A stretch of DNA of 64,000 nt from Trypanosoma brucei (taxonomy: Eukaryota): assembly GCA_000002445.1 (NCBI GenBank), contig CP000071.1:128001-192000 (forward strand). Reading direction: 5' to 3'. The notes beneath the pieces are model-generated. The model worked only from the letters and a program-made list of their open reading frames with translations. It searched no databases and was not told where the DNA came from. Made by a program: the position numbers and the translations under genes. Positions 1 to 18,200 of the stretch are shown piece after piece. Within the stretch, counting starts at the first letter, position 1. Every line of letters starts with the position of its first letter.

Positions 1-299
1 TGGACTATTCCTGCGTCCGGTGCTTTTCCTGCTAGCTCCACTCTCGGCAATAAGGGGGGAAGTTGCAGAAGGGAGAGTGGGTTGTATGACTGTTACCTTA
101 GGTGAGGACTTCACCTGCGGCCGGCTCCGTTCAACCGCAATGAGAAACTGCGCCAGCCTTTTAGAGAAACATACATCCTGCACACACACTCCTTCTACCG
201 AAAACCTCACACGTAATTCCTTCAAACCTGGACAGCTCATCAGGTGCAGCAACATTTCTTCGCAGTCGCCGCGTTGGCTGGTAACAGCGCGCTCTACCT

Positions 300-2420
300 T
301 CATACCGTGCATCTTCTTTTGATGTAGGGTGAGGCCAGTTTTGCTAGCACACTGCCGTTCGCATGTCGGGCACACCAACATGGATGTGTTTGTATGCGGG
401 GAATCAGTGGCACGCAATTTTGTGCTTTTGCTGCATTTAAGCTCGACTCCCTCACCTTTGTGGAAAGCCTTACAGTGTCGGCTGAGGGAGTCCCTGCAAC
501 TGAGCACTTTTTGGCACACACTACACTGCACCTCCCTTTCCCCGGGATGTCAACGTTTCCCTCACGGGGACGCTTACGAGGGAATTGCACTACCATTACG
601 GTACCGTCCTCAGTCACTATGCTCTTATGTTTGAATTTCTTGTGTAGTGACAGGGAAGAACGTGTACCGAAGCTCGCCTCGCACAGGTCACATTGAAACA
701 GCAGCTTCCGTGTATCCTGAGAGGCTGGCGCTGCTGGGGCTCTACCATCTCCTTGCACTGAGTCTTCGTTCTCTCGTCCCCTTTTCACGCGGCAACTACC
801 GCTACCTATGTCATGTATTGTTCTAAGGTGGTGTAATAGTCGGCCTGGCACTGCGAATTTGGAGGCACAGATGGTACAATAAAGCACCTGTGGTCTCATC
901 GGGACTCGTGTGCTCGATGGTAGAGGAACGATCGCCACCACTGGAGGGGGCTCCGGGGGGATATCCACTGCAGGTGTTGCATCGCCGTATTTGATCTTCA
1001 AGAGGGCATCAGCTCGCACAAAGCCATGTTTGTTTACCATATGCGTTACAGCACTCGAGCGGCATTGGTATGTGGCATCACATTCCGTACATTTGGTCGG
1101 TTCGGAGGTTCTCTGAAGAGTGCGTGCCGCAACAGGTGGGGCTGTTTGTATTGTTGGTCCTATCGCTGCATGTTGCGGGTTACACCATCGGCACTGCGGG
1201 GGCACACTCGGGTTGATCTTTCGCAACATCCATCCATAGTGTCTTGAAGACCCAACCCGAAAGCGTGCCAGTGCCGTTTCTTCTTCCCTCGTCAGTTCTT
1301 CTTTATGTTTTGTTGGAAAGTGGTTGCCCGTGATACCAAACCTATGAGTGTTTTCATGGACTTCTTCCAACCTAAGCACTCGCTTCGCATAAGCAATGAT
1401 GTCGGGGATCCATGTGTCTCGCAATTGTGGTAAATATGCGGCCTTTTTGGCCATTTCATCGCAAACCTCATTCCGTTTCACGCCACAATGGCCAAACACA
1501 AATTGCAGTCGCATACGCAACTTCCTTCTCTGAACTTGAAGCAGAAGCCTCCATAGTCGTCTTAGAATTGGGTCCGTTACGGCTAGGGGGCCTGTCTGCA
1601 GTGCTGTTAACATTGACAGCGAGTCAGAGAAGATGGACAACCTGCTCGGTGTGCTTCTGTATACCGGAAGCCATTTCAGCAGCCGTTGCAGTCCTATCTC
1701 TAATGCTACGCATTCCGCTCTGTAACTGCATGAGAGTTCCCCTGCTCCGGACTCCTCACCGAGGGACACGGATCCATCAGTCCACAATTCGTAGTGCTTA
1801 CGTCGCGGCGGCTCCTTCCCCCTCCGTGCAAAATGCCGTTCAATCCACTTTTCGGAAGCCCCCCTTTTGACATCGTCAGGGTCATCAGCGCACACAGGCT
1901 TTATCTGCGTGTGAAATAGCGGTCGGCAGCTGTGGCGGAGCGTCGATGTCTCTAGTGGGTGCTCGCGTGGCTCAATGTGGAGGTGGGGGTAGGACCGCAT
2001 GATGCGGGAATGTAGGGCTCTGACTGGGTGTTTGCTGTGGTATACTTCTTCAGCACTGCGCCGCAAACATCCGCTTCGTGACTCACACATCAGCATGAAT
2101 TTCATGCTGTGCACAAGAGTGGCCGTCTTGAGTGGCAGGAGGTTTGCTTCCAGCAGAGAGTCCTCTTTGCGCGTCCCATGCGGTATGCCGGCTATGATGC
2201 AACTGGCTTTGTGTTGTGCTGATGCAAGGAGGTCGCGACTTCGTTTCGAAGCGTCCCAGTACCATACCTCAATGCCATACATGGTGTGTGCCTGTACGAG
2301 TGCTAGATAAAAAGCTCTCAGTACTTGTCGTCTTGGCCCCCATGTAGAAGCTGAGATGGCTGCTATCTGCAGTAGTCGGAAGTCCATCTTGCGTCTCGTT
2401 TCGGCCTCATGTGTTGCCAT
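300..2420 (-). CDS. ingi ORF segment: RT C-terminal region, RNase-H-like motif and C2H2 zinc finger; separated from the RT segment by a stop/frameshift.
   Basis: YELWTDGSV (RNase H-like) and the C2H2 finger CTECDATYQCRSSAVTHMVNKHGF. It is contiguous with the upstream RT ORF on the same strand. Confidence 0.6.
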   Translation of the reverse strand: MATHEAETRRKMDFRLLQIAAISASTWGPRRQVLRAFYLALVQAHTMYGIEVWYWDASKRSRDLLASAQHKASCIIAGIPHGTRKEDSLLEANLLPLKTATLVHSMKFMLMCESRSGCLRRSAEEVYHSKHPVRALHSRIMRSYPHLHIEPREHPLETSTLRHSCRPLFHTQIKPVCADDPDDVKRGASEKWIERHFARRGKEPPRRKHYELWTDGSVSLGEESGAGELSCSYRAECVALEIGLQRLLKWLPVYRSTPSRLSIFSDSLSMLTALQTGPLAVTDPILRRLWRLLLQVQRRKLRMRLQFVFGHCGVKRNEVCDEMAKKAAYLPQLRDTWIPDIIAYAKRVLRLEEVHENTHRFGITGNHFPTKHKEELTREEETALARFRVGSSRHYGWMLRKINPSVPPQCRWCNPQHAAIGPTIQTAPPVAARTLQRTSEPTKCTECDATYQCRSSAVTHMVNKHGFVRADALLKIKYGDATPAVDIPPEPPPVVAIVPLPSSTRVPMRPQVLYCTICASKFAVPGRLLHHLRTIHDIGSGSCRVKRGRENEDSVQGDGRAPAAPASQDTRKLLFQCDLCEASFGTRSSLSLHKKFKHKSIVTEDGTVMVVQFPRKRPREGNVDIPGKGRCSVVCAKKCSVAGTPSADTVRLSTKVRESSLNAAKAQNCVPLIPRIQTHPCWCARHANGSVLAKLASPYIKRRCTV

Positions 2421-2446
2421 CCCTTGCAGACACTGGAATGTTACTC

Positions 2447-3661
2447 CTAGAGAAGCTTCGGTGTCCTGTCAGCTCCTATTCTTTCGCCGTCCAGTTGCAA
2501 TGTAAGGGGGTGGCGCTCTATACACCCGAAGAGTGTGCACTTCGTTTTCGCTACGTTGACAGACATGAAGTACTCTTTTGACCACTGTAACACCACGTTT
2601 AGGCCGCATTGTAGTGTGTGGTTGATGACATCCCTCTCTGTGTGCCTGGCAAGTAGCGTCAGGTCGTATGCAAAGAATCCGTGCTGCAGTAACGGCACTT
2701 CTGCAAGGCGTTGGCTCAACGAGTTCATGACAATAATGAACATGATTGGGCCAAGGACAGTTCCTTGTGGCACTCCTCGCTCAAATGTTCTGCTGTTGGA
2801 AAGCTTCTCCCTGAATCTCACTCTGCCAGTTCGGTTACTCAGAAATGATACGCACCACTTCACAATGTGGGGTGATACCTTCATTCTGTGCATTTCCCTC
2901 GCAATTTTGTCGTGGTCTACTGTATCGAATGCCTTCTCGTAGTCGACAAATACAGCACCCGTAAGAGATTGGTGCGTGGGGCGGCAGAGGGCAGCGCGGA
3001 CGTGCAGGAGTTGTTCGAGCGTTGAGCATCCGGGGCGAAAGCCTGATTGCTGCGGCGTCAGCTGGGACTCAACAGTGTCTCTAAGCCTCGTGGCAATTAT
3101 GCGCTCCATGACTTTGCAGAGACAGCTCGTGAGCGTCACTGGCCTGTAAGAATCGAGGTCCTCCGCCTTTTTTCCGGCCTTCAGGATGGGGATGATAACA
3201 CCAGTCTTCCATGCAGGCGGCACGACTCCCGTTCGTAGGCTGTCATTGAATAGCCTCAGAACAACATTCAGCGCTGTTCTACCGAGATGTTGCAGTGCCT
3301 CGTTGTATAAGCAATCAGGTCCGGCTGCGGATCCACTCGGTAGCAGTTTGATCGATCTCCGTAGTTCAGCCATCGTGATGGGACTGAACTCACTCGCTAT
3401 CGTCTTTATGGGTGCAGGTGGGTGTGAGTCGGGGTGCCTTCTTGCGCGGGACGAGTACAGTTTACTGAACCTCTCAGCTTGACGGTAGTCCGTGATGGCC
3501 GCGTTATCAACAAGTACAGCCGGTGTGGTTAGTGGTCGTGGCGCATATACCTTCTTGACAATGTGCCAACTGCAGTGGTCTGACACTTCATGTCTGGAGC
3601 ATAGCGTGCTCCATCTCTTCTTTGTGGTACGGTCCAGGATCTGCTTACGCGTGGCTACCAA
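2447..3661 (-). CDS. ingi ORF segment: reverse-transcriptase domain
   Basis: RT motifs are present: YRPVTLTSCLCKVMERII, QSGFRPGCST, VFVDYEKAFDTVDHD, FAYDLTL (an FADD-box variant). Confidence 0.7.
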   Translation of the reverse strand: MVATRKQILDRTTKKRWSTLCSRHEVSDHCSWHIVKKVYAPRPLTTPAVLVDNAAITDYRQAERFSKLYSSRARRHPDSHPPAPIKTIASEFSPITMAELRRSIKLLPSGSAAGPDCLYNEALQHLGRTALNVVLRLFNDSLRTGVVPPAWKTGVIIPILKAGKKAEDLDSYRPVTLTSCLCKVMERIIATRLRDTVESQLTPQQSGFRPGCSTLEQLLHVRAALCRPTHQSLTGAVFVDYEKAFDTVDHDKIAREMHRMKVSPHIVKWCVSFLSNRTGRVRFREKLSNSRTFERGVPQGTVLGPIMFIIVMNSLSQRLAEVPLLQHGFFAYDLTLLARHTERDVINHTLQCGLNVVLQWSKEYFMSVNVAKTKCTLFGCIERHPLTLQLDGERIGADRTPKLL

Positions 3662-4845
3662 CTTTTCCCTTCGGTGGGAGGGTCCGCATCCAGCGATCTC
3701 TTCATCGAGTTTCGGGAGTGTATGTGTCCAATGCGGATGGCGGAGCTCAATTTCTGTTCCAGGGTGTTGACGTTCTTCTCTCTACCAATTTTCCTGCAGA
3801 GCTCGTCAACCTTGAGACGGAAATTCCTCCAGTTAGCTTTTAGCCATGCGTACATGGGCTTTCGAAGCCGCGGGCAACTCAGTGCATCTGTGTCGTCTCC
3901 AACGATAACGTCGAAAAATATGTGATGGCGATCGCTATCGGGAGAATACAGCGATGTCCACGTGTACACTGTGCAATTCCTTGACAGTGTCACATCAGGG
4001 CTGGACTCCCCGTGGTGGCGCGCGTACCTGGTGCACTCACCAGTGTTGCAGACCAGAAACTGGTTGTCAATGCACCACTGTGTGAGGGTTTCACCCTTGG
4101 TATTTGGTGGGCTCGCGCGATCCCATGCCAACGCGTGTGCGTTAGCGTCTGCACCGATGAGCTGGGCACCGTCAGTCGTTAGAAGCGTATCTAGGTCAGT
4201 TGCCGTGAAGGTGTGTTTTGGTGGGATGTATGCCGACGTGACAGTCAGCGCCGTTCCACGTGCAAGGTGAATTATTGCATGCACTTGTTCAATGCGACCA
4301 ACAACGGCTATACCGGTCTCGACTGGTAGGTCCTCCCTCACTAGTATTGATACACCACCTCCTTTGCAGTTACGAGCTATTCCGTGATGTTGGTAGCCAG
4401 CAACGCTAAAGCAAGCCGCCTCTCCAGGCGTCATCCTTGTCTCGCTCAACAGACAAAAGGCGATCCGCTCATCAACAAGGGTTTTGTGGAGTGCTAATCT
4501 CTTTCCTTGAGATAGCCCGGTGCAGTTCCACTGCATCCCTCGCAACGACGGGCCGGGATTCTCTTCCACATCACCGGACAGCAGCATCTTAGTGCGGATG
4601 ATACTGCTGATAGCACGCTGGCACGTGCCCAGGGACCGACAAATGAAAAACGGTGTCCCGGCAAGACGCCGCTGATCCCTGTTCTGTATGATGCCGTAGC
4701 CGGAGCACAGCAGTGTTCCCCATGAAAGGAACGCTGCTGGCTCTTGGCTTCGCCCGATGATACGGGGTACTGGACCCTGGCACCACGTTGAGGTGGCCGG
4801 CATCGCCAGGGGAAACACAAGCAACCAGATCACACCAAAGAACAA
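3655..4845 (-). CDS. ingi ORF segment: N-terminal 2A-like peptide plus apurinic/apyrimidinic endonuclease (EEP) domain. It is frameshifted relative to the RT segment.
   Basis: The translation contains LLSGDVEENPGP followed by an endonuclease-like domain (LSETRMTPGE..., SPDSDRHHIFFD). The ORF overlaps the next ORF at 3655-3661 in another frame. Confidence 0.65.
   Translation of the reverse strand: MFFGVIWLLVFPLAMPATSTWCQGPVPRIIGRSQEPAAFLSWGTLLCSGYGIIQNRDQRRLAGTPFFICRSLGTCQRAISSIIRTKMLLSGDVEENPGPSLRGMQWNCTGLSQGKRLALHKTLVDERIAFCLLSETRMTPGEAACFSVAGYQHHGIARNCKGGGVSILVREDLPVETGIAVVGRIEQVHAIIHLARGTALTVTSAYIPPKHTFTATDLDTLLTTDGAQLIGADANAHALAWDRASPPNTKGETLTQWCIDNQFLVCNTGECTRYARHHGESSPDVTLSRNCTVYTWTSLYSPDSDRHHIFFDVIVGDDTDALSCPRLRKPMYAWLKANWRNFRLKVDELCRKIGREKNVNTLEQKLSSAIRIGHIHSRNSMKRSLDADPPTEGKSW
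4549..4572 (-). other. 2A-type self-processing peptide motif DVEENPGP near the N-terminus of the ingi ORF
   Basis: The reverse complement of 4549-4572 is gatgtggaagagaatcccggcccg, which translates to D-V-E-E-N-P-G-P. A 2A sequence at the start of trypanosomatid L1Tc/ingi ORFs is established knowledge. Confidence 0.75.
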
Positions 4846-4896
4846 AAGCCGACACAGCTTAACGACATACTCAACGTCAACATGACGATTTCCTGA

Positions 4897-6199
4897 AGCT
4901 CACAGCAGACCCTGGTGGACAAAATAAAAGAAAAATGCGACTTCGCTACATTTAAGCAAGACGCCGGCGCATCTTTCAGAGATATCAACCGGGAGGAAGA
5001 CTCAGCGGACTGGAAAGACGCCAAAAGCTCGTGGAACGTAGCGAATCCCCTCACGGTACACGCTTTGCTGCTACATAGCTTCAGGAGCATCGTCAACAAC
5101 AGGGCCAACGAAGCTCTGAAAAAGTTCAAAGAGACGCAAGCGACCGGACTCGACACAAACCCCAACATAATAGAGCAGATTAACGAAGCTCGAACAAAAG
5201 CGGCGTGCGCGAGCGACGGTATGTACGATCCCGCAGCAAAGACATGCAAAGCATCACAGGGCAATACAATCACAAAAACGGCAGAATGCACACCAGACAA
5301 AGCCGGAACGAGCATCGGCCGCGACCTGATCTGCCTGTGAGCTTCGACTAACGGAGCGGAATGTACCGGCACACACTTCACGCAGGATCAGATCAGCGTC
5401 GGCAACATCGTAGCAACTGCGTGGGAAAAAACGGTTGCGAAGTGCCCAAAAGCAAACACAGATCTCTCTTTAGACGTGGCAATAGACATCGTGCTAGCAG
5501 CTGTCGCAGCGCAAATCGGTGTAAACTAAAACAGCGCAGCAACAGCGCATACGCTCACGGGTGGAACTTATTCAACGAGTTGCGCCAATGCCGGCAGCAA
5601 CTGCATAGACTATTCGTAACACTACACCGGCAGCACAAAAGGTTTCTACAGCATCCCATGGGCCGCTCAACTGACAGAGGCACGCAACCTTTACAAAATG
5701 TACCAGGAATTTGTTGAAAACAACAAGCGGCTGAAAGCAGAGGTAAAGAAACTAAAAGCAACGATATCAATCAGAACTACTCCGACAACCTCAATAATTC
5801 TCCGGCAATACAAACACGCCAACAGGAGAATCCAGCGGAACTAGGGGTGACGACAAGCCGCAGGTAGAATGTGGAAAGATAACAACGCCAGATAATTGCA
5901 AACCAGATATGGGATGTAAATATAACGAAACTCCTAACAAATGCGAAGAAGATCCTAAAAGCCATGTTGTTCAAGCGAACCAAGAAACTGGAAAGACAGA
6001 TGGGGGTGTAAAATACTTAGAATATGAAATGAAGAATAGATGTGAGGCTGTCAACAGGGATGACCAAAAGAATTGTAAATGGAGAAGAGGGAAAAGAGGA
6101 CGAAGATGACAAGGATAGAGAAGTGCCGAAATGGAAGTTTTCTCATCAATAAGAAAATAGCTCTGATGGCTGCTGCTTTTGTGAGTTTGTTGTTATGAC
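4897..6199 (+). pseudogene. VSG: Variant surface glycoprotein (VSG) pseudogene. The N-terminal-domain-like region and the C-terminal domain with GPI-signal tail are spread over at least three frames, with an in-frame TGA at 5338-5340. It is 5'-truncated where it abuts the ingi 5' end.
   Basis: The translation includes the VSG-like ...AECTPDKAGTSIGRDLICL*ASTNGAECTG... (frame 1, 4897-5528). Cys-rich CTD pieces (CGKITTPDNCKPDMGCKYNETPNKCEED, CEAVNRDDQKNCKW) occupy another frame. The terminal ...KCRNGSFLINKKIALMAAAFVSLLL* (ending 6199) is the classic VSG GPI-anchor signal tail. The VSG 3'UTR 16-mer lies 75 bp downstream. Confidence 0.8.
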
Positions 6200-6272
6200 A
6201 ATTTTTAAAAGGATTTTTGCCCGATTTTATAAAATCTGTTATTTGTGATAATTTGACATATTTCTTAATATA

Positions 6273-6288
6273 TGATATATTCTAACAC
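6273..6288 (+). promoter_or_regulatory. Conserved VSG 3'UTR 16-mer (TGATATATTCTAACAC; one mismatch to TGATATATTTTAACAC)
   Basis: Exact string read at 6273-6288, downstream of the VSG stop. The 16-mer is a known VSG mRNA stability element. Confidence 0.75.
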
Positions 6289-6456
6289 TCTTTGATGAAA
6301 ACCTAAAAATCAGTAGAACTCTTTAAAAATACGTATGAAACTTTTTTACGGGTGTAACTTAGTACGGTGATAAGGTAGGTTAATGATTGCTTTTTCAATG
6401 TATATCCATTTTGGTTTTTTATAGCTATTAGTGATAGCCATATTGTAATGGTAAGT

Positions 6457-6535
6457 ATAATAATAATAATGATAATAATGATAGGAGGGTGTATTGAGTG
6501 TGTATATACTAATTCTAATATTATAATAAATTGCT
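6457..6535 (+). repeat. Single 70-bp-repeat-like element (VSG-associated imperfect repeat): (TAA/TGA)n tract followed by a GGAGGGTGTATTGAGTGTGTATATAC...ATATTATAATAA core
   Basis: taataataataatgataataatgataggagggtgtattgagtgtgtatatactaattctaatattataataaa closely resembles my recollection of the T. brucei 70-bp repeat consensus (…TAATAATGATAGGAGAGTGTTGTGAGTGTGTATATACGAATATTATAATAAGAG…). The consensus is recalled, not aligned. Confidence 0.5.
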
Positions 6536-7692
6536 GTATAATATTGTGCATTTGCACGGCTGAGAATGGTATGTCTTGGTAAAGATTTCCTCGTTCACTC
6601 ACCCAGCATACCACCAAATCGTGCTCTTATGTGGTGCACAAACTTGTAATTTCTCTCTCAGAAAGAGACTTGTGAATATCATAAAGTAGTCACATTGTTG
6701 AAACACGGGTAAACACACGTATAAAAAATGCATATATTCATATATTTAACACATTTTGCGGTCTTATATCGTTTTTAATATCATAGATTGCCTATACTAT
6801 CCAGAGAGACAGCAATTCTCTTTCTAAACGGTTATTTACACGATGCATTTGGAACCTTCTTCAGTGTCAGCACACATATTATTTCCTGCGTCTTTGTAGA
6901 ACTCAAGGATGGTCAACTTATTTTATTCATATTTTAATTCACATATCGGAGGAACACACATTCAACTAAGCGCATGTCCATTAATTCTACCTACAGATAA
7001 TATTTTCAAAAGAAATCAGATGGAGGTATATTTCTTTTTACAGAATCATTTAATAACATATGCCGAAAAGCATGTATACAGTTAAAACAATTCTTGCTCA
7101 ATAAGCAACACGATATGGATATTTTGTCCTGAATCGGGAAATAAACCCATAAAATTACATTTTTACTTTTTGTCAGTTTATATGTGCACCAGCACCTCGC
7201 CATTCCCTCTTTTAAAATTAGATTTTCTAAAATTATTTCATAAATTATGAGAGAAAAGAAGAAAAACAATCTAGATTACCACACACACATACTCTGTCTC
7301 TCTCGTTCACACTATTATCAATTGTTTGATTTATTTAGAAGTGAATTATTGTTATTATTGATATTGTTTTTATTACTATAAAACATATATTGGTTCCTTC
7401 TTACACGCAAAGAGTGCGTCCTAAGATTTTTTCTCTGTAAATAGCACCTTCTCAAAAACTAACAACTTTATATCCCTTAAATTTCTCACCATCTTTATCG
7501 TTATCTCACACATTCACACTACTCTAATTTTCCCCTTTTCAGCTTAATTTCAAATATTGGTATTTCCTGTTTCTTTATTTTCTTAACATTTAGACATCAC
7601 CTTTTTTTGCCTGCATTAATGTCAATAAGGGATAGTATAACAAAATTATTATGGGGAAAAGATAAAGTGAGGAAAACAATCATCACGCGTGA

Positions 7693-8691
7693 TCACTCAG
7701 CGACATCAGCGAGAACCCGCCCACCGCGGCTGCGCACGAACTCCATGCGACGGGGCACAAGCACTGCGATCTCTTTACCAAAACGGAAAAAGACAGCAAC
7801 AGCGAGAAGTCCTGTGCCCATACCAATTAAGCTACCAGCAACTATATCAGCGAAGTGATGGCGGTTGTCACGTGTTCGTGAGATGGCGCAAGCACATGCG
7901 AGGTAAATTGGAGAAAGGCCAACGAGTGTTCGCCACACGGATGCTCCACTGAACGCGTGTAAAACCGAGAGGAAGTATAGGGCCATCGGTGTGCAGACGG
8001 AGAAAGCGCAACTACTGTGCCCTGAAGGAAATGAAAGCCTGCCATCCCTTGCTTTTGCAATGTCACAGAGATCTTTTGGATCTGTTCCTTCCGTAACGTT
8101 AGCCTTTTTCAATCTATCAAGAAAATCAGGACGGAGTCGGCCAGCATAAACCTTCAATATTTCCACCAAACAAACGGCCAAAATAATAGAAAATCCGTGC
8201 GCCAGAACCCAGTAATTGGTGGCTTCAAGACATGTCATAAGTCTCTTTGGATCATTCTCTTTGTTCCCTTCTGGCGATTCGTCGGGGTATCTTCCAGCCT
8301 TAGCAGCATTTGCGCCTTCAGACCTCTTCCCTTCTGGCTCCAACATCTCTACCCGCGTAGTGGCTCCGTCTATGAGTTGATCAGTTTCTTTCACATCCAA
8401 GTACCACTCACCCTTCCGAGCCAAACGCGCACGCAAGGCTTCGAACAGCAGATAAAGTCCAATAGGTATAAATTCCATGGAAAACAGTGTTCCTGAGGGG
8501 AATGTGGACTTCCCCTTCTTATGACTTATGTCCGTGTCATTCCATGAGAATGTTCGGCAAGGTGGGCGGACAGTCCTCATTCCATACACAACAGCCAGTG
8601 CAAATGTCACAAGTAGAATGTAGTCCAGCGCATGAAATACCTTTATGTAGTACACAAATTTTGCGAACCCTGTCTTACCATCATCTGCCAT
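7693..8691 (-). CDS. PAP2-family lipid phosphate phosphatase (phosphatidic-acid-phosphatase type 2), multi-pass membrane protein
   Basis: All three PAP2 signature motifs are present: KVYAGRLRPDF (KxxxxxxRP), SFPSGHSS (PSGH), SRTRDNRHHFADIVAG (SRxxxxxHxxxD). ATG verified at 8689-8691. Hydrophobic segments are present. Confidence 0.8.
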   Translation of the reverse strand: MADDGKTGFAKFVYYIKVFHALDYILLVTFALAVVYGMRTVRPPCRTFSWNDTDISHKKGKSTFPSGTLFSMEFIPIGLYLLFEALRARLARKGEWYLDVKETDQLIDGATTRVEMLEPEGKRSEGANAAKAGRYPDESPEGNKENDPKRLMTCLEATNYWVLAHGFSIILAVCLVEILKVYAGRLRPDFLDRLKKANVTEGTDPKDLCDIAKARDGRLSFPSGHSSCAFSVCTPMALYFLSVLHAFSGASVWRTLVGLSPIYLACACAISRTRDNRHHFADIVAGSLIGMGTGLLAVAVFFRFGKEIAVLVPRRMEFVRSRGGRVLADVAE

Positions 8692-10171
8692 CTTTTAACG
8701 CCTTGTTGTGCTCAATTAAGTAACGACGCTGCAAAACAGTTATCAAACAGCGGATAAAATAAAGGAGAACGGTACAAAGAATGCATGAACATATTCAAAT
8801 TCAAAAAAAAAGATTGCAACCCCTGCATGCAATACGCTTTAACTCAATATTCCGAAGCTTTTTATTGCTCTTTGTGGGATTGTCACTGGAAAGGTGTACT
8901 GTACGTATGCAACTTGATGATAATTCTATAAATCACATCATAGAATAAAAAGTCAAGCAGCATATAAATAAAACAGTGTTAAATCTAATTACAAGGCGTT
9001 TTTGGATACCTCCCGTGCATTTTCCATACTTCATAAGATCTGTAATGCATGTGTGTGAAGATATTATATATATATGCACTCCTATGCTCCCGATATGTCC
9101 AGGGACTGTGTAAATGAGGAAGAGGTATTCGCTGTTCCAGACTTCCTCCACAAGCACAGAAACCATATAATTCGCGATCACTTGTCCCTCCTATACAACA
9201 CTATCTCCTTACATCATCATTGTCATGGAGAAGAATGCTGCGCACACGGACATGCGCAACAGTTCTTTTCCACAACTAAAATACTAAAATCCCATAAAAA
9301 CAGCGAGTATACACTCATCGATACTCACACCAGCAGAGTCACACTACTAATTCCAACTGTAAATCTGTATAGTGGAGGAAGGGGCTGTCGTACAATGAAC
9401 CAAGTATCCTTAGCCCTCTTCAGCGGTCTGAACATAAACTCGGTTTTTGTGCAGCTTATCCGCATAGTGGGAAGAAAATGGTTTCCGCTTCACGCGTCCT
9501 CTGAAACACCATCTTTTCAATTATGCCAAGAACGTTACGCCTTTGTTTCAGGGTGTAGTGGGATACTTGCTTTACTATATCACTGATTAGTTTTATATTG
9601 AAAAAGAGTCTCTTGACTACTACCTTCTTTCCTGCAGCCGCCTCTGATCCAGACATTGTGCAGAGGTAATGTTGTCTAACGGAGAAGCATGAACCGTCAA
9701 TTTGAGAGTTGCTAATATCCTTTAATGGAAAAACCTACTATATTTGACCAACCATTTCAATTAAACTGTTGTGCTTAAATGTGGAAACCTGGCGCAGCGG
9801 TACGTACTTCACAGCGAGAAAAGAGTCCACATATTTGTGTTTAAGAGGAGAGAACATAGCATGTGTAGTTCAGATGCTAAACGCAAAGATACTTTAGCTC
9901 GATTTTGTTTAGCAGCAATAACATCAAAAATAAAAACAACGGATGAGCAAAAAGAGAAACGCATCTCCACGTGCAGCCTGTTAAACAGATATTTACAGCC
10001 ATCCAGAGGAAAACATTTCACCACAAATTTCAATTTTCAGCACCGCTAATAATCTGTCTAAAACAACCTCTAAAAATCAAAGATCGTAAACACAAATGAT
10101 TACCTTAATATTGTGTTGAATGACAATAAAAAATTGCTTTTCTAGACAACGATACTTCCACGCACCATCTT

Positions 10172-10845
10172 TTTAAACACTTGTAGTCCCCATAGTAGCT
10201 TCTAGCTTAATGATAGCGTACAACATAAAGAAATTCAATACATCCTTCTCCAAACATATATATATATATGTATGTGTGTGTTAATTTCCTTTAAACTTCA
10301 CTCCCCTCACTTCCTTATATACCAAACTTCCATACCTTATCTAACCCCATATGTTAAGTGTTACATTACTCCTAATTTTCAACGTTCCAGCAGTATTTCT
10401 TTCACGCTGTTCATAATTCTATAAGGCACCGCCCATCATATAGGGTAAACTATTTTTAACCTTTTAATTCTATTTTCTTACTTTGTACTATGTGTACATA
10501 GGTTATTATATGATGTATATGAAAATTGGTAAAAAGAAGCAACAGTTATATTCAATTCCGAGAACACCTCATGGTGTAAATATAAGTTTTTAAAACTAAT
10601 GATACCATTCGTTACGACACAAATATCCTCTCGAATATTACAACAATCTTATTTATACCTTTAAATTCTTAATAAATAAATAATTATATTATCGACAGTA
10701 TTTCGTGATTATTCTTTGACGAATTCTTTTGGTCCACCCATGACGTTACCGTCATACAACAATTTATTAAAAATAACATAAAATGCTTAGTAAAAAAAAG
10801 AAAATATTACCCTTATTTTCGTGTAATTTCCCATTGTTTCGCTTT
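10172..10845. repeat. Duplicated segment X, copy 1 (the 3' flank and last ~18 codons of gene A). The second copy is at 13218-13855.
   Basis: Near-identical strings in both copies: cttgta[g/a]tccccatagtagcttctagcttaatgatagcgtacaacataaagaaattcaatacatcc... through ...aaaatattacccttatttt. Confidence 0.8.
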
Positions 10846-11618
10846 AATGGACTTCGAACAACTTCATCATCATAATTTTCTTCATCATCTTCACCACTAT
10901 TACTTTCGTTTCCTTCCCCTATTGATTTTCTTCTTTGCATTCTTCCACGATATTTTCCTTTTCCCCCCTTACTACTATCCTCTTCATCCTCATCCTCATC
11001 CTCGCCCTCATCTTCTTCCTCGTCCTCCTCTTCATCCTCATCGTCTTCATCGTCTTCATCGTCTTCATCGTCGTCTTCCGTCCATAATCCTCCGTATGGT
11101 CCAACAATTTCTACACCCCGCACTCTTTGAATCTTCTCAGGGGTGAGGTAAGTGACAATACATTTTCCATGCACTGTACCCCAATGATCGTAATCTCCAA
11201 CATTTTTGGCCCATTTTTTTTCAAATTTCAACATATCCTTGGTGCATTTCGCAGCTTTGCTTCTCGTTAGTGGAAAGGTCCCATTTAGTTGACACACGGG
11301 ATTTATCCCCAAAAAATTCCAGCCTTTCATTGTTCTTCCCACAGATTCGAAGCTCGTATGATTCCATCCCTTTTTCGAATAGGCCAAAGCAATGCCACCC
11401 TCCTCACCCCCTCCGCAGTGCATCTTCCCCCACCTTATCCTCTGACCACCTCTTTCGCAATAAAACCGCATATGTCCACCTTTTTCAAATGCGGCGCACA
11501 CCTCGTCCAGTGATAATGAATTCCTATAGAGCGCATACATTTTGAGAAGTTCCCAAAAAGAGGCTTCAGCAGAGGACCCGAGAAAGCCGAGAATGAGCGC
11601 CAGTACTATGGTTTTCAT
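10767..11618 (-). CDS. Cassette gene A, copy 1: a 283-aa predicted secreted/surface acidic protein. Signal peptide MKTIVLALILGFLGSSA, Cys-containing N-domain, long D/E run, basic stretch, hydrophobic C-terminal tail (GPI-signal-like). Family unknown.
   Basis: ATG verified. The 17-aa N-terminus and ~18-aa C-terminus are identical to the ORF at 13813-14628. The internal ~240 aa are only distantly similar, though the Cys/Trp spacing is conserved. Confidence 0.6.
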   Translation of the reverse strand: MKTIVLALILGFLGSSAEASFWELLKMYALYRNSLSLDEVCAAFEKGGHMRFYCERGGQRIRWGKMHCGGGEEGGIALAYSKKGWNHTSFESVGRTMKGWNFLGINPVCQLNGTFPLTRSKAAKCTKDMLKFEKKWAKNVGDYDHWGTVHGKCIVTYLTPEKIQRVRGVEIVGPYGGLWTEDDDEDDEDDEDDEDEEEDEEEDEGEDEDEDEEDSSKGGKGKYRGRMQRRKSIGEGNESNSGEDDEENYDDEVVRSPLKRNNGKLHENKGNIFFFLLSILCYF

Positions 11619-12296
11619 ATTGATCTCCTACTGACAAACACAGAAAAAATGCCCATATATTTTACCCAATACTCACTAACGTATTCGATATACCTTCTCC
11701 CATGGTTGTAAGTAATTTTAGAAGAAAAGAAAAATAACAATTATCAAAAGGTTATATAACGCTCTTTTATTAGTTACTCCCTCTCGGCACTCATAATCCT
11801 CATCATCGGCCTCATCGCTGTTTTCACCTTTACGCCTGCATATTTTGGATTTACTCTTTTCACCTTTAACCTTTGAAACTTTAGTCTCCACAATTACCTC
11901 TTCCTTCTTTCGTTTTTCTTTTTGATATCCAAACTCTTTTACACGATTCTTTTCTTCGCATTGATTTAAATCTTCATCCTCTTCAGTTGCATCATACCTG
12001 GCAAAAGGCACATTTTCACTAGTGTTTGGCATTTGGGATTCCATAATGACGGACTTTATCTGAGTGCTTTCTTTGCTGCAGTTCCCTCCTATTCGTTTGC
12101 ATGTGCTTTCCATAGCACTTCCTGCAAGAGCCGCAAAAATGGTGGAAACAATTTGAGTGCCTACGCTTACACCTTGAGGTGGCGAGTAAACATGGTTCAA
12201 GGCTATGATGCAGTGATTCTGATTTCTTAAACGCCACACCCGCATTGGACCAGTAGCTTCTGTACGCGGGGTTGCCGCGAAATGCGCAGGCGCACA
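11571..12296. repeat. Duplicated segment Y, copy 1 (gene A signal-peptide codons, the A-B intergenic region and the 3' two-thirds of gene B). The second copy is at 14581-15297.
   Basis: agaggacccgagaaagccgagaatgagcgccagtactatggttttcatattgatctcctactgacaaacacag... is identical in both copies. Confidence 0.8.
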
Positions 12297-12662
12297 ATCG
12301 TTTATTGGTTCAACGATTATGGTTCGCCGCCTGCTCACCCGGCAGCATGGGTTGTAACCGCGACCACGAAAGGTGTCATTTACAAACTTGGCCCCGGGGT
12401 CTGAGAGGTGACGCTTCCAGTCTTCTAACGTCCATTGCGTAGGCAAAAGGTACATTCTACCGTCCTCTCCTCTAGAACACAATGTTATGTTCCACCCCTG
12501 CTCTGATTTTCGGATTTTGCTGTCAAAGTTACATGCTACAATAACACTTTCACCATCGATAAACCAAAAGGCGTGGCAATTCCTCACTCTGTTATATTCC
12601 TCACCATTACAGAGTGAGGAAAATAAAAGTATTATTAAAATAGCGCCTATCTGTTTACACAT
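11718..12662 (-). CDS. Cassette gene B, copy 1: a 314-aa predicted secreted/surface protein. Signal peptide MCKQIGAILIILLFSSLCNG, Cys-rich N-domain, E/K-rich acidic-basic region, hydrophobic C-terminal tail LLIIVIFLFF. Family unknown.
   Basis: The ORF-track start at 12671 is TTG; the first ATG is at 12660-12662. The C-terminal ~175 aa are duplicated, nearly identical, at 14728-15255. Confidence 0.55.
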   Translation of the reverse strand: MCKQIGAILIILLFSSLCNGEEYNRVRNCHAFWFIDGESVIVACNFDSKIRKSEQGWNITLCSRGEDGRMYLLPTQWTLEDWKRHLSDPGAKFVNDTFRGRGYNPCCRVSRRRTIIVEPINDCAPAHFAATPRTEATGPMRVWRLRNQNHCIIALNHVYSPPQGVSVGTQIVSTIFAALAGSAMESTCKRIGGNCSKESTQIKSVIMESQMPNTSENVPFARYDATEEDEDLNQCEEKNRVKEFGYQKEKRKKEEVIVETKVSKVKGEKSKSKICRRKGENSDEADDEDYECREGVTNKRALYNLLIIVIFLFF

Positions 12663-13217
12663 CAAGAACAATTCTGAGGGCGTAAATTTTTAGAGGCAGT
12701 GAAGCAACAGATTGTGCACCACAACGTGGTTTAGATCTTTGGTTTCTAAAGGTAGTAGTGATAGTAAAGCAAACCAACATTGTGGAGTAAAGAAAGAATG
12801 AGCTCAGAGCAAAATAGAAAATGATGTGAGGTGTAATTTATATTTTCGTGAGATAGAGGATTTTTAATTTTTTTTTGTTGGAAAAAATTCCAAAGAGAAA
12901 ACTTTTTCAAATTGTAGTTTCCACTTCCAACCCTGATTCTTCTATTTTCAAAATTAAATATATGCAGAGCGGCACAAATCACCACCTACTATTCATTACA
13001 ATCATCTACAAATGTTGTGGTAAGTTATACCAAATGTAATACCGTTTTTATAAAACATAAACACATGATAATTACGCTCCGTTGCTTTCAATTAAAATAT
13101 CGAGTAATTCTATAACAGAATAGTCAACATTAAAAAAGAACTCTATCAAATTACGAAAAATCACACAAAAGGAACAATATAACAGGAAGTACCCATCCTG
13201 AAAACGCGGCACTTTTC

Positions 13218-13855
13218 TAAACACTTGTAATCCCCATAGTAGCTTCTAGCTTAATGATAGCGTACAACATAAAGAAATTCAATACATCCTTCTCCAAACA
13301 TATATATATATATGTATGTGTGTGTTAATTTCCTTTAAACTTCACTCCCCTCACTTCCTTATATACTAAACTTCCATACCTTATCTAACCCACCATATGT
13401 TAAGTGTTACATCACTACGAATTTTCACTGTCCCAACAGTATTTCTTTCACGCTGTTCATAATTCTATAAGGCACCGCCCATCATATAGGGTAAACTATT
13501 TTTAACCTTTTAATTCTATTTTCTTACTTTGTACTATGTGTACATAGGTTATTATATGATGTATATGAAAATTGGTAAAAAGAAGCAACAGTTATATTCA
13601 ATTCCGAGAACACCTCATGTTGTAAATATAAGTTTTTAAAACTAATGATACCATTCGTTACGACACAAATATCCTCTCGAATATTACAACAATCTTATTT
13701 ATACCTTTAAATTCTTAATAAATAAATAATTATATTATCGACAGTATTTCGTGATTATTCTTTGACGAATTCTTTTGGTCCACCCATGACGTTACCGTCA
13801 TACAACAATTTATTAAAAATAACATAAAATGCTTAGTAAAAAAAAGAAAATATTA
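13218..13855. repeat. Duplicated segment X, copy 2
   Basis: See copy 1; roughly 95% identical by eye, with small indels. Confidence 0.8.
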
Positions 13856-14628
13856 CCCTTATTTTTTTGAGGACTTGCGGTACCTTGTTTTACCAGGTTT
13901 TGAAAATCTTCATTATCATTCGCATATTCATCATCGGCATCAGCACCATGTTTGTCATCTATTCCTTCTTCGTGTGCATTCTCACTACTCAATATCGTTT
14001 TTCGTTTTTTTGCGGTTCTTTTTCTCTTTTTGTGTCGCCTTTTTTTTTCAACTTCAAGTTCTCTAGTCATATTCTCTTCTTCATTCCTGCTCTCTTCTGG
14101 CTCGTCGTCCTCGTTAACTTCCACTGCTTCTCCTTCAGTTGAAAGAATGTCAAGAGGACGAGTGGTGATAATGCACTTCCCTTTCGCAGGATCCCAGCTC
14201 TTGTACCTATTACCATTTTTTACCCTTCGCTCCATCTTTTTTAGCGACTCGTTTGTGCATTGGGTGACCGGAACCTTAGGTAATTCAACTTCGTCATCAA
14301 TGGTGCACTCTGGATTCACTCCCAAATAAATCCAGTCATCCATATCTTGTTCCAGCAATATGTGCTTCTCGTAAGACTTCCACTCGTTTGAATAGGAAGC
14401 AAAAACATTCCCCTTTTCGTCGACACCGCAACTCATTACCTTCCAAATCGGCAACTCATTCCCCCTATGGCAAAACATCTGCATACCCCTGTCATCTGCA
14501 AACGCGGAGCACAACCGTTTGGGTGTCCCGAGGTCATCGTAAAACAAGTGCTTAATTTTATCCCATTCCTCTTTATCCGCAGAGGACCCGAGAAAGCCGA
14601 GAATGAGCGCCAGTACTATGGTTTTCAT
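13813..14628 (-). CDS. Cassette gene A, copy 2: a 271-aa paralogue of gene A with the same signal peptide and C-terminal tail but a strongly diverged mature region
   Basis: ATG verified. MKTIVLALILGFLGSSA... and ...KNKGNIFFFLLSILCYF are shared with copy 1. The core aligns only by pattern (C-AF...F-C-RG...W...CG...E-G...YS...W...LG-NP-C). Confidence 0.6.
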   Translation of the reverse strand: MKTIVLALILGFLGSSADKEEWDKIKHLFYDDLGTPKRLCSAFADDRGMQMFCHRGNELPIWKVMSCGVDEKGNVFASYSNEWKSYEKHILLEQDMDDWIYLGVNPECTIDDEVELPKVPVTQCTNESLKKMERRVKNGNRYKSWDPAKGKCIITTRPLDILSTEGEAVEVNEDDEPEESRNEEENMTRELEVEKKRRHKKRKRTAKKRKTILSSENAHEEGIDDKHGADADDEYANDNEDFQNLVKQGTASPQKNKGNIFFFLLSILCYF

Positions 14629-15297: not shown

Positions 15298-18200
15298 AAT
15301 TGGGCTCCGACGTCAGCCCGGGACTGAACATTCTTGCTGCCACCAGGCAAATGGCATTTGCCTTTTATGTGGAAGCGCCCATACTGTCAGTGCTTTCGCT
15401 TCTCTACCATACGTTCTTTCCTTTGAAATTCCAGTGTTTCGTTTGTGCTTCAACTGTACTCTAAATGAAAATATAGTACCTATAGGGTGTTAGTCATATA
15501 ATTATGTTAAAGTACTATATTATATTTTTTACATGACAACGGTGAAGTGTTCAACATGTTTATGTCCAACGAGAGTCGCCGATGACGACGAGTACGCCAG
15601 ATGGCTGCGAGGCCCATATTGGGTCGAAAACCAAGATCTTGAGGGTGCTGTGGGTCGCATTAGCAGGTTGTTATTATTATCGCTTGCTCTCGTCTGGCAG
15701 TCGGTTACGGAAGATAATTTAGCCCTAACGGTGTCATATAATAATCTTACCAATTCAATGAGCTACGCTACTCCACTCTCTACACTCCTGCGCCTGTGTT
15801 TGGTTTTTGTGTCAACTTTAGATGGAAATGCTTTAGTGAAGCGGTCTATCATCCGCTTCTCAGTTTTAACTGTGGAGAGTTTTCCTTATCAAGCACCACA
15901 CGATCACGACTCCGGTATGTTTACTAACTTTCATCCCCTTTTGTTAATATTTATTTTTTGCAACCACCATGTGGCAAAGTGGATATGAGCTGCTCCTGTC
16001 TCCATCATTTCGCCATTGCGCCCTGTAATCACCCTTTCTAAATGTTGAATCACTTCTCGAGGACTCCTCGAAAAAAAAAAACCCTGACCATCACCATTCC
16101 CTCTCACTAACTCCCCTTCAAACTCTTATACATAGAGCGTGTAGCTGCACAAGACGGTGTTACACGTATTCGTCCGCCACGCGCAAGGAGAGCCTGCATC
16201 TCAACACTTTCAACCGTCAGCATTATCAGCTGTTTGACCACGGGCATCCCATGAAAATGCTTTCAAACTTCATGCAGGACGAACCAATCTCGGTGGAGCT
16301 GTAGTCGCTATGCACTTATGATTATACAAATGCACCCCTCGTTGTATTTCCAGTTGGCTTCCAAAACACACGAAAAAAAGGAGAGTGAATATGAAATATT
16401 CGAATCCATCACCGACGCATGAGCATTTGTAGTTGGAGCAGGCGCCAATGTCAACGATTCCTCCACAAGTATATAAAGATATATTATTTCACTCACCGGA
16501 AGTATTCATAGAAAGCAAGAAAAAGCATTAAGAGACCACACCTCAGGAGTCTTCACGCTGGAAAGGCTACTCCGCACATTCTTTACGGGCGCAATTGGCA
16601 CGTTCATGACCTTTTACCGCCCACCACCGAGAGGGGCATGTGGCTCCCAGGCGGTATTGTAGAAAAAAAATGCGGCGACAGCATCGAGTTAAAAACAAAC
16701 ATAACACACGTCCATACAAAACAGGGACACAGAAAGTAATTGTCCCTGCACCCTTTCTCAAATGAGAGAGATCTTCATTGGCTGTCAGAAAGAAAAAAAA
16801 AACATCACTGCTTAGTAAGAGGCATCATTTTGAAGAAAGCTCATAATTCAACAAATTCGTTCTTACAATAAAAACGACTGAAATAACAGTTTCTACAAGA
16901 TGTAGGCAGCCGTACACTAGCGTGATGATATGAAGCATGGTATTCGCTCAGGCTTCCGATCTATGAGGAAGTAGAAAAATAGCGGCAAACGCTTGATGTA
17001 GATAATTATTCACAAGGTCCGAAAATAGTATAGGATTCTCTCAGGTAATATCGAATGAACTCATACTCCAATTTGAGCCACAGGAAACACTTGTGCCAAA
17101 CACGTTTCTGCAAACCATCAACCTTTATTCAAGAGGCGGTGGGCACATTTATACCAACGGAAAGCGCGCTGCCTGTAGGCGAAAATATGAAATTCCCGCA
17201 ACAAGCCATGAGATGCACCAACAACGTCTTACACAGGAGGCGAATGTGTTATGCAATACGCTATTGAAGAAGGGTTTTCACGGCCGCTAGCGGAGGGAAT
17301 GCCACCGAACGGCTTCAGGATGACAATAATTCTTGGGATCAACCGTGATCATCTACAGGGAGCGTGGGGAGTTAAATTGGGGCTGGCGACTGAGCCAAGT
17401 GGTGACCATCGTTTTATCGGGTCCGGAGCAAACCATATTGGAGTACTTACCGATAAGTCTTCGTGCACACGCTAAAGAAACAGGTGCAAACCTGCCGGTG
17501 CGGCGAGAATTGGGCGAACGAAACCGTGCGATTGTCAGCAACAATAACCCCGTCATAAAGGAGGCAATTCCGAAGAGGATGAATGGGCTGGTGTCAAATT
17601 TTGGAAGCGAAAATTATGGAGTACACGCGGGGAAATAAAGCGGTATGAAAACGGAAAGGGCGCTGATCAAACTGGAGATGGAAAAAAAAACCTGGGTAAC
17701 GCGCAGGTCTCAAATCCTTTGGGCCAACCACTCGGTCCAATAAAGGAGCAGGAGGTACATGCAAAGAACGAGGGTTATAGCTATCAAAAATGAGGGAACA
17801 GGAATGATATCGGCCTCAAGGAACTGAACGGGCAAAGAATGATCATGCGCTCTGCCTGACAGTGGTGAAAGCGCATATTTAGCTTTTTTTTTTTGCAGAG
17901 GGGGATGCAGTTGTCAGACGCGCTGAGTTCGAGCTAGCAAGAGAAGAAAAAATAAGGCAAAGCGCCGTGAGCAACAGCGCGCATCCCAAAGAATGAGAGT
18001 TGTTCCGACGTATTTAATGAGTTGTAGCTTAACCCAGGAAGTGAGAGAGCGGACCGCAAAGCAGACGACCGGCGTACAGGACACATGAAAAAGATTAACG
18101 AGAGGCAGAAGTAGCGGGGGGAGGGAATTTAGAAGGAACACCTGACACGGGGCCGACTGCCAAGTTCAGACGGGTCCATCACGCTGGACGCGCTTTCGTG

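What the first reader, a model, noticed from the sequence alone, without database searches (positions are those of the whole stretch)
4897..6540. Orphan VSG pseudogene cassette (in-frame TGA, frameshifts) with 16-mer and a 70-bp-type repeat, only ~17 kb from housekeeping genes
The VSG reading frame carries TGA at 5338-5340 inside an otherwise conserved ICL-CASTNG stretch, consistent with a Cys codon mutated to stop. The C-terminal domain is spread over two further frames, yet the GPI-signal tail and the 3'UTR 16-mer (one mismatch) are intact. A 70-bp-repeat-like element follows the gene at 6457-6535, whereas 70-bp repeats normally precede a VSG. No further VSG follows, so it may be the orphaned upstream repeat of a deleted cassette. 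The result is a convergent VSG(+)/PAP2(-) arrangement around an AT-rich tract at 6200-7690. A pseudogene of this kind would be usable only as a donor for mosaic VSG formation.
Basis: partly seen in the sequence, partly recalled or inferred. Interest (0 to 1): 0.5.

Follow-up and report, generated by a model that had tools for sequence, protein, structure and literature searches.

The report
Decayed VSG pseudogene at array edge
This is an ordinary, badly decayed and 5'-truncated surface-antigen (VSG) pseudogene that forms the innermost unit of the silent VSG array on Trypanosoma brucei chromosome 8, and the "misplaced" 70-bp repeat behind it is the normal junction found after array VSGs.

Summary
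The window is T. brucei TREU927 chromosome 8, left end; PAP2 at 7693-8691(-) is Tb927.8.480. A type-B VSG pseudogene is there, with TGA at 5338 replacing the second Cys of the CLC motif. Its C-terminal domain is spread over three frames. The GPI-signal tail is readable, a 16-mer with one mismatch lies at 6273-6288, and one 70-bp repeat lies at 6460-6543.

The gene is cut at 4813/4814 by the 5' end of an ingi retrotransposon, which removes about 50 codons and its own upstream repeat. There are four further in-frame stops (4894, 5527, 5617, 5795).

The lesions are not sequencing errors. T. equiperdum shares all of them. T. b. gambiense shares three: both TGAs and one frameshift. pN/pS is 0.82 for the VSG against 0.09 for PAP2, which indicates neutral decay.

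"Orphan" is not supported. The window starts inside the ingi. Gambiense has another VSG 5.9 kb upstream, and Tb927.8.170 and Tb927.8.420 are published array VSGs.

A 70-bp repeat about 250 bp after a VSG stop is the standard arrangement (3 of 3 comparator junctions, and the spacers align). Whether a further cassette was deleted cannot be decided. This is ordinary and of low interest.

The parts
1..4813 (-). ingi non-LTR retrotransposon. The window starts about 350 bp inside its 3' end. Its ORF is broken into at least three pieces (300-2420, 2447-3661, 3655-4845). Its 5' terminus is at 4813.
   Evidence: Pfam gives RVT_1 at 5e-42 and Exo_endo_phos_2 at 2e-11. An independent copy in T. b. equiperdum (L004 17460->17147) begins its homology at exactly window 4813, at 93% identity. 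The gambiense ortholog is about 5.17 kb long, with a short A-tail and no 12-bp target-site duplication.
4814..5768 (+). Type-B VSG N-terminal domain remnant, lacking about 50 codons at its 5' end (signal peptide and start of the domain). It has in-frame stops at TGA 4894-4896, TGA 5338-5340, TAA 5527-5529 and TAA 5617-5619.
   Evidence: VSG_B matches profile positions 76-351. On the gambiense-based reconstruction starting at the ingi junction, it matches profile 40-351 of 352, E=1.9e-24; intact VSGs start at profile 2-5.
5769..5797 (+). Junction lesions between the N and C domains: a 1-bp insertion at 5769, and TAA at 5795-5797 in the continuing frame. Both are absent from gambiense, whose copy reads straight through here.
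   Evidence: Three-way alignment, difference list and gambiense translation.
5798..6198 (+). VSG C-terminal domain (two four-cysteine subdomains), acidic linker and GPI-signal tail. The frame order is second (5798-6094), third (6096-6116), first (6118-6198). There is a +1 shift at about 6095 shared by all three genomes, and a 2-bp deletion at 6117/6118 in TREU927 and T. equiperdum only. Cys->Tyr at 6015 is found in TREU927 only. The stop is TGA at 6196-6198.
   Evidence: tblastn shows 62-68% identity to the C-domains of VSG 1125.4069 and 1125.4013. Trypan_glycop_C matches 1-104 of 104, E=5.7e-20, on the reconstruction. Alignment.
6273..6288 (+). VSG 3'UTR 16-mer with one mismatch (TGATATATTcTAACAC). 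The gambiense copy has two mismatches.
6199..6459 (+). VSG 3' flank and spacer leading to the 70-bp repeat. It is alignable with the same interval behind three other array VSGs.
   Evidence: MAFFT alignment of the window against L004 (two sites) and L001.
6460..6543 (+). A single 70-bp repeat unit: a TAA/TGA run, GGAGGGTGTATTGAGTGTGTATATAC, then ATATTATAATAA. It has the same orientation as the VSG. It is identical in TREU927, T. equiperdum and gambiense.
   Evidence: Alignment to the 77-bp consensus. 0 of 84 positions differ, against 3-4% in the flanks.
6544..7692 (.). AT-rich spacer between the array edge and the PAP2 stop codon. It presumably contains the PAP2 3'UTR and the termination zone of the minus-strand transcription unit. 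It holds no VSG remnant, tRNA gene or Rfam family match.
   Evidence: Composition. tblastn gives nothing significant. Rfam and ARAGORN find nothing. It is conserved at 97% in gambiense, with several indels.
7693..8691 (-). PAP2 / phosphatidic acid phosphatase, Tb927.8.480. It is the last gene of the minus-strand core transcription unit.
   Evidence: Exact match to XP_846886. Pfam PAP2 at 4e-28. Gene ID. pN/pS is 0.09 against gambiense.

Best explanation
Region 4814-6543 is the core-proximal end of the silent subtelomeric VSG array on the left arm of T. brucei TREU927 chromosome 8. It holds one type-B VSG cassette that died long ago.

Shown:
- The 5' end of the gene (about 50 codons), and with it its own upstream 70-bp repeat, is replaced by the 5' terminus of an ingi retrotransposon.
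- The body carried two stops and one frameshift before T. b. brucei and T. b. gambiense separated.
- It has since gained three more stops and two more indels on the TREU927/T. equiperdum side.
- It evolves at a near-neutral rate.
- The 70-bp repeat 262 bp behind the stop codon is not misplaced. Array cassettes are joined head to tail through a conserved module of stop, 16-mer, roughly 170-nt spacer and 70-bp repeat. This is that module at the last position of the array.

Inferred:
- Beyond the repeat the sequence runs into the AT-rich terminus of the convergent housekeeping transcription unit that ends with PAP2.
- The pseudogene cannot be activated as a whole gene. It has no 5' end, no upstream 70-bp repeat and an interrupted frame.
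- At most it can donate short segments by segmental gene conversion, and that needs an expressed VSG with enough DNA similarity. The C-terminal domain (62-68% amino-acid identity to known VSGs) is a more plausible donor than the N-terminal domain (at most 35% identity to any VSG protein found).
For: - Location: exact protein matches place the window in TREU927 chromosome 8. Tb927.8.510 is at 13813-14628 and PAP2 = Tb927.8.480.
- VSG identity and truncation.
- ingi terminus at 4813.
- Synteny: T. equiperdum OVI is collinear over 4786-10558 at 98.8% identity. T. b. gambiense DAL972 has the same order of upstream VSG, RIME-like piece, ingi, truncated VSG, 16-mer, 70-bp repeat, AT-rich spacer and PAP2.
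- Shared versus lineage-specific lesions.
- Neutral evolution: pN/pS is 0.82 for the N domain and 0.53 for the C domain (13 changes), against 0.09 for PAP2.
- Stereotyped junction: the distance from VSG stop to 70-bp repeat is 262 bp here, about 175 bp in L001, and 250 and 255 bp in L004. The spacers align.
- Array membership: Tb927.8.170 and Tb927.8.420 are array VSG donors in Hall et al. 2013, Table S1. The upstream gambiense VSG is 99% identical to VSG 1125.5787.
- Mosaic use of array pseudogenes, and its dependence on homology: PMC3708902 and PMC12137147.
Against: - The TREU927 sequence to the left of the window was not available. That the array continues there rests on gambiense synteny and on published gene IDs, not on direct inspection.
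- Only three comparator junctions from two other Trypanozoon assemblies support 'stereotyped'.
- No expression or recombination data were examined, so the donor role is inference.
- Protein databases do not hold pseudogenes, so close pseudogene relatives of the N domain would have been missed.
Confidence: 0.88

Rival explanations
1. This is an isolated ('orphan') chromosome-internal VSG cassette, and the 70-bp repeat behind it is the surviving upstream repeat of a neighbouring cassette whose VSG was deleted. The deletion left the 70-bp repeat next to the PAP2 terminus.
For: - The repeat has the same orientation as the VSG. It is followed by 1.15 kb without a VSG before PAP2, which is about the usual distance from a 70-bp repeat to a VSG start: 0.7-2.3 kb in L001 and L004.
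- No further + strand VSG exists in the window.
Against: - 'Orphan' is contradicted by the upstream VSG in gambiense and by the chromosome 8 array VSG IDs.
- A terminal 70-bp repeat needs no deletion to explain it, because it is part of the conserved 3' junction module of every array cassette examined.
- There is no VSG remnant in 6544-7692.
- The arrangement is identical in three taxa, so any deletion would be old.
- The comparison of the post-repeat flank is uninformative, because such flanks rarely resemble each other (3 of 10 control pairs).
Confidence: 0.2
2. The stops and frameshifts are sequencing or assembly errors, and the gene is really intact.
For: None found. Subtelomeric regions are generally harder to assemble.
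Against: - TGA 4894, TGA 5338 and the +1 shift near 6095 are present in TREU927, T. equiperdum OVI and T. b. gambiense DAL972.
- The remaining lesions are shared by TREU927 and T. equiperdum.
- The 5' end is replaced by an ingi in all three.
- pN/pS is about 0.8.
Confidence: 0.01
3. The lone 70-bp repeat, or the whole stop/16-mer/repeat module, at the array-core junction is kept by selection. It would act as a boundary or as a recombination anchor, marking where archive rearrangements stop before the housekeeping unit.
For: The 84-bp repeat is identical between TREU927 and gambiense, while the flanks differ by 3-4%. The arrangement is conserved in three taxa.
Against: - Zero differences in 84 bp at about 3% divergence has a Poisson probability of about 0.08. 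This is my own calculation from the counts, and it is not significant.
- The adjacent 16-mer is decaying (one mismatch in TREU927, two in gambiense).
- No functional data exist.
Confidence: 0.06

Closest known systems
Silent array VSG pseudogenes and gene fragments of T. brucei TREU927 (the 'silent archive')
   Same: - Type-B N-domain, cysteine-rich C-domain and GPI-signal tail.
- 3'UTR 16-mer and a flanking 70-bp repeat.
- Interspersed ingi elements.
- In-frame stops and frameshifts.
- Only about 5% of array VSGs are predicted to be fully functional (PMC3708902).
   Different: Nothing categorical. It is more damaged than a typical full-length pseudogene: it is 5'-truncated and carries five stops and three indels. 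It happens to occupy the last array position, next to the core.
70-bp repeats of bloodstream expression sites and array cassettes (consensus from Hovel-Miner et al. 2016, PMC4858185)
   Same: The order of parts is the same: a TAA/TGA triplet run, then GGAG(A/G)GTGT..TGAGTGTGTATATAC, then ATATTATAATAA. The whole 77-bp consensus aligns.
   Different: It is a single unit, not a tandem tract. There is a 3-bp insertion ('TTC') and a few substitutions relative to the expression-site consensus. No VSG lies downstream of it.
ingi/RIME non-LTR retrotransposons
   Same: Reverse transcriptase and AP-endonuclease domains are present. The 5' end is shared with an independent copy. The length is about 5.2 kb in gambiense.
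   Different: The ORF is interrupted. There is no target-site duplication around the gambiense ortholog. This suggests the flanks were joined by recombination or deletion after insertion, not by a simple insertion into this VSG.

Membership tests
VSG (type B) gene | VSG_B N-terminal domain | tested here: met
   PF13206 at E=1.7e-16 on the TREU927 translation and E=1.9e-24 on the gambiense-based reconstruction. Only profile positions 40-351 of 352 are covered.
VSG (type B) gene | N-terminal signal peptide and the start of the N domain | tested here: not met
   Homology begins at the ingi junction (4814) at profile position 40, whereas intact VSGs begin at profile 2-5. No N-terminal piece lies on the far side of the ingi in gambiense.
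VSG (type B) gene | Cysteine-rich C-terminal domain plus a hydrophobic GPI-signal tail | tested here: met
   PF10659 matches 1-104 of 104 at E=5.7e-20 after frame repair. The tail reads ...CRNGSFLINKKIALMAAAFVSLLL*. One conserved Cys is lost in TREU927 (position 6015).
VSG (type B) gene | Uninterrupted open reading frame (functional gene) | tested here: not met
   Five in-frame stops and three frame-shifting indels. It is therefore a pseudogene or gene fragment.
VSG cassette | Conserved 16-mer TGATATATTTTAACAC in the 3'UTR | tested here: met
   Found at 6273-6288 with one mismatch. It is unique in the window, where 0.04 matches are expected by chance.
VSG cassette | A 70-bp repeat upstream of the VSG | tested here: not met
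   The sequence upstream of the VSG is an ingi. The only 70-bp repeat in the window lies downstream of the gene.
70-bp repeat | Alignment to the 77-bp consensus over its whole length, well above chance | tested here: met
   Score 80 over all 77 consensus positions. The core scores 58, against a shuffle maximum of 34.
70-bp repeat | Tandem repetition | tested here: not met
   There is a single unit and no other copy in the 64 kb window. Single units also occur in arrays, at L004 18916 and L001.
ingi retrotransposon | Reverse transcriptase and endonuclease domains, and the canonical 5' terminus | tested here: met
ingi retrotransposon | Target-site duplication flanking the element | tested here: not met
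   In the gambiense ortholog the flank beyond the A-tail (..ACACTAGTAATC) does not match the flank at the 5' end (AAACACAAGCAA). This could not be tested in TREU927, because the 3' end lies outside the window.

The most novel reading that the evidence does not exclude
The terminal stop/16-mer/70-bp module at the array-core junction is maintained as a functional element. It would act as a recombination anchor or chromatin boundary that limits archive rearrangement next to the housekeeping unit. The perfect conservation of the 84-bp repeat between T. b. brucei and T. b. gambiense, against 3-4% divergence in the flanks, would hint at this.
Probability: 0.05. Interest if true: 0.4.

Novelty: already known. 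Interest (0 to 1): 0.1.

Why it matters
It matters little. Decayed VSG pseudogenes, interspersed ingi elements and flanking 70-bp repeats are the well-described content of T. brucei subtelomeric arrays. This locus lies in the reference genome, whose archive has been catalogued.

Its modest uses are these:
- It is a clean three-taxon example of stepwise pseudogene decay. Three lesions are ancestral, and five more are on the TREU927/T. equiperdum side or were removed in gambiense; no outgroup polarises this.
- It is a concrete example of what an array-core junction looks like.
- It corrects the impression that a 70-bp repeat behind a VSG is unusual.

Tried and rejected
- I tried to fetch the TREU927 sequence left of the window through PAP2 and through a TREU927 VSG. 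That assembly is not indexed, so the upstream TREU927 array could not be read directly.
- I looked for the missing VSG 5' end on the far side of the ingi in gambiense. All three frames show only a RIME-like piece and unrelated sequence.
- I tested whether 6544-7692 resembles other post-70-bp (VSG 5') flanks. No similarity was found. The control showed that such flanks seldom resemble each other (3 of 10 pairs), so the test is uninformative.
- I looked for a close intact relative. The best N-domain match is only 35% identical (VSG 1125.4069). The C-domain reaches 62-68%.
- I looked for this gene among the published mosaic donors of TREU927 infections. Tb927.8.170 and Tb927.8.420 are listed, but they have N-types C and A, so neither is this type-B copy. 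Its own gene ID is not known to me.
- Rfam and tRNA scans of 1-24000 found nothing.
- Marcello & Barry 2007 is not held in the library.
- I considered programmed readthrough or frameshifting and rejected it, because of the 5' truncation, the number of lesions and a pN/pS of about 0.8.
Full report
**Where the window comes from.**
Six predicted proteins of the window were looked up by exact sequence, and five were found. Four of them are identical to Trypanosoma brucei brucei TREU927 proteins on a 2.48-Mb record. One of these is the ORF at 13813-14628(-), which is Tb927.8.510. The ORF at 7693-8691(-) is identical to the PAP2 phosphatidic acid phosphatase XP_846886. A paper on iron homeostasis gives that gene as Tb927.8.480. 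The window is therefore the left part of chromosome 8. Every ORF of at least 180 aa from 7693 to the right end that corresponds to a real gene lies on the minus strand. PAP2 is thus the last gene of a leftward transcription unit.

**Checking the observation.**
- VSG identity. The three-frame translation of 4800-6300 and Pfam confirm a VSG. VSG_B (PF13206) scores E=1.7e-16 and the VSG C-terminal domain (PF10659) scores E=7.7e-7.
- The TGA at 5338-5340 is in frame in '...DLICL*ASTNG'. Intact type-B VSGs retrieved have a Cys at that position (FCLCAV, TCLCLN, TCVCFR).
- The C-terminal domain is in a second frame, the acidic linker in a third, and the GPI-signal tail 'KCRNGSFLINKKIALMAAAFVSLLL*' is back in the first.
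- The 16-mer with one mismatch is at 6273-6288. It is unique in the window, with 0.04 matches expected by chance.
- The 70-bp element. I took the 77-bp consensus from the expression-site repeat set in the S1 Dataset of Hovel-Miner et al. 2016 (PMC4858185). It aligns over its whole length to 6460-6543 on the + strand. The score is 80. The core scores 58, against a maximum of 34 in 300 shuffles of the AT-rich tract. There is no second copy in the window.

- The window begins inside an ingi. Positions 1-4813 hold an ingi non-LTR retrotransposon on the minus strand, with reverse transcriptase and endonuclease domains. An independent ingi/RIME copy in T. b. equiperdum begins its homology at exactly window position 4813, which fixes the element's 5' terminus.
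- VSG homology runs right up to that junction. When the less damaged gambiense copy is translated from the junction, VSG_B matches from residue 6, at profile position 40 of 352. Intact VSGs start at profile 2-5, after a signal peptide. About 50 codons, and whatever lay upstream including the cassette's own 70-bp repeat, are therefore gone.
- There are five in-frame stops, not one: TGA 4894, TGA 5338, TAA 5527, TAA 5617 and TAA 5795.
- There are three frame-shifting indels: +1 at 5769, +1 near 6095, and -2 at 6117/6118.

**Synteny and the sequencing-error question.**
- The PAP2 orthologues gave two syntenic loci.
  - A 5.76-kb T. equiperdum OVI contig is collinear with window 4786-10558 at 98.8% identity.
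  - The second locus is 21 kb of T. b. gambiense DAL972 chromosome 8.
- In both loci the order is the same: ingi 5' end, truncated VSG, 16-mer, 70-bp repeat, AT-rich spacer, PAP2.
- The three-way alignment shows which lesions are shared.
  - TGA 4894, TGA 5338 and the +1 shift near 6095 are present in all three genomes.
  - TAA 5527, TAA 5617, the insertion at 5769, TAA 5795 and the 2-bp deletion are shared by TREU927 and T. equiperdum only.
- The gambiense copy reads in one frame from the ingi junction to '...NCKWRRGKRGRR*', interrupted only by the two TGAs.
- Three independent assemblies therefore exclude a sequencing artefact.
- Between TREU927 and gambiense, pN/pS is 0.82 for the N-domain frame and 0.53 for the C-domain (13 changes), against 0.09 for PAP2. 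The VSG evolves close to neutrally, while its neighbour is under strong purifying selection.

**Is it an orphan?**
No.
- In gambiense another type-B VSG lies 5.9 kb upstream, separated only by a RIME-like fragment and the ingi. It is 99% identical to VSG 1125.5787 of strain EATRO 1125.
- Table S1 of Hall et al. 2013, which used TREU927, lists Tb927.8.170 and Tb927.8.420 as array VSG donors. Gene numbers rise rightward in the window (.480.490.510), so those VSGs lie to the left of it.
- The pseudogene is therefore the innermost member of the left-arm array.
- I could not read the TREU927 sequence left of the window directly, because that assembly is not indexed.

**Is the 70-bp repeat misplaced?**
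No.
- I collected other array VSG loci: a T. equiperdum contig (L001) and 21 kb of a T. b. equiperdum array (L004).
- Wherever a VSG 3' end is followed by more array sequence, a 70-bp repeat in the same orientation lies shortly after the stop. The distance is about 175 bp in L001, and 250 and 255 bp in L004, against 262 bp here.
- The interval from the stop through the 16-mer to the repeat is alignable among all four sites.
- The repeat behind this VSG is therefore the normal head-to-tail junction module of the array, sitting at its last position.
- Whether a further VSG once followed and was lost cannot be decided. No VSG remnant is detectable in 6544-7692. That segment resembles no other post-repeat flank, but such flanks seldom resemble each other (3 of 10 control pairs), so the test carries no weight.

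**How the ingi and the VSG came to be joined.**
The gambiense ingi is full length (about 5.17 kb) with a short A-tail, but its two flanks share no 12-bp duplication. The far flank holds no VSG N-terminus. The junction is therefore more likely the product of recombination or deletion involving an ingi than of a simple insertion into this gene. This is an inference.

**Function.**
- The locus has no 5' end, no upstream 70-bp repeat and a heavily interrupted frame. It therefore cannot be activated by whole-gene duplicative transposition.
- Array pseudogenes do contribute to mosaic VSGs by segmental gene conversion (PMC3708902). Recent work shows this depends on sequence similarity to the expressed VSG (PMC12137147).
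- The N domain here is at most 35% identical to any VSG protein found. The C domain reaches 62-68%.
- Any donor role is therefore more plausible for the C-terminal part. Pseudogene relatives are invisible to protein searches, so this remains open.

**Verdict.**
This is a correct and careful observation of an ordinary object. It belongs to a fully described class (silent-archive VSG pseudogene or fragment with an ingi and a 70-bp repeat) in a reference genome. The 'orphan' and 'misplaced repeat' readings are not supported, and interest is low.

The only slightly unusual points are two, and neither is statistically compelling. The 84-bp repeat is perfectly conserved between subspecies; by my own Poisson estimate from the counts, that has a probability of about 0.08. 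There is also a TREU927-specific cluster of five substitutions in 131 bp of the C domain, which could be a micro-conversion tract.

Noticed in passing
window 5905-6035: Five of the eight TREU927-specific substitutions in the VSG fall within 131 bp of the C-terminal domain (5905, 5932, 6015, 6034, 6035). At these sites T. equiperdum agrees with gambiense. My own rough scan-statistic estimate gives P of about 0.015. The cluster could be a short gene-conversion tract into a silent pseudogene. One of the changes destroys a conserved Cys (TGC->TAC at 6015).
   Followed up: partly
window 7693-14628 (PAP2, Tb927.8.490, Tb927.8.510): The first core genes next to the array are reported in a bioRxiv paper to be up-regulated on iron starvation in bloodstream forms (PAP2), or were assayed as iron-responsive candidates (Tb927.8.490, Tb927.8.510). 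Tb927.8.510 is annotated as specific to T. brucei species.
   Followed up: no
window 7693-8691 vs L003 10001-10999: PAP2 shows synonymous divergence pS = 0.088 between TREU927 and T. b. gambiense (27 differences in 999 bp). That is as high as or higher than in the neighbouring pseudogene. It seems high for these subspecies, and it may reflect old haplotypes or a raised mutation rate near the subtelomere. The expectation of lower genome-wide divergence is from my memory only.
   Followed up: no
L003 19047-19760 (gambiense, window orientation) and L004 11450-11707: RIME-like 5' sequences sit directly behind the 3' end of array VSGs, in the same orientation as the VSG. The same read-through is visible as a C-terminal extension of the database protein VSG 1125.4013 ('...MWCQGLFPRPEGSQALALNPIQQDWGRKQAF'). 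In L004 another minus-oriented ingi/RIME 5' end lies about 740 bp upstream of a VSG C-terminal fragment, which resembles the arrangement in the window.
   Followed up: partly
window 20507-21247 (-): Two adjacent ORF fragments carry leucine-rich-repeat-like motifs (for example 'LKTLYLSGCTKLNNISELRYLRSLERPDLSGCVGLKNI'). They may be a degenerate LRRP/ESAG8-like gene between the T. brucei-specific genes and the first large conserved gene at 23635-30990.
   Followed up: no
window 17001-19000: There is strong strand asymmetry here (AT skew 0.23-0.45) and no long ORF in the direction of the transcription unit. It was not examined.
   Followed up: no
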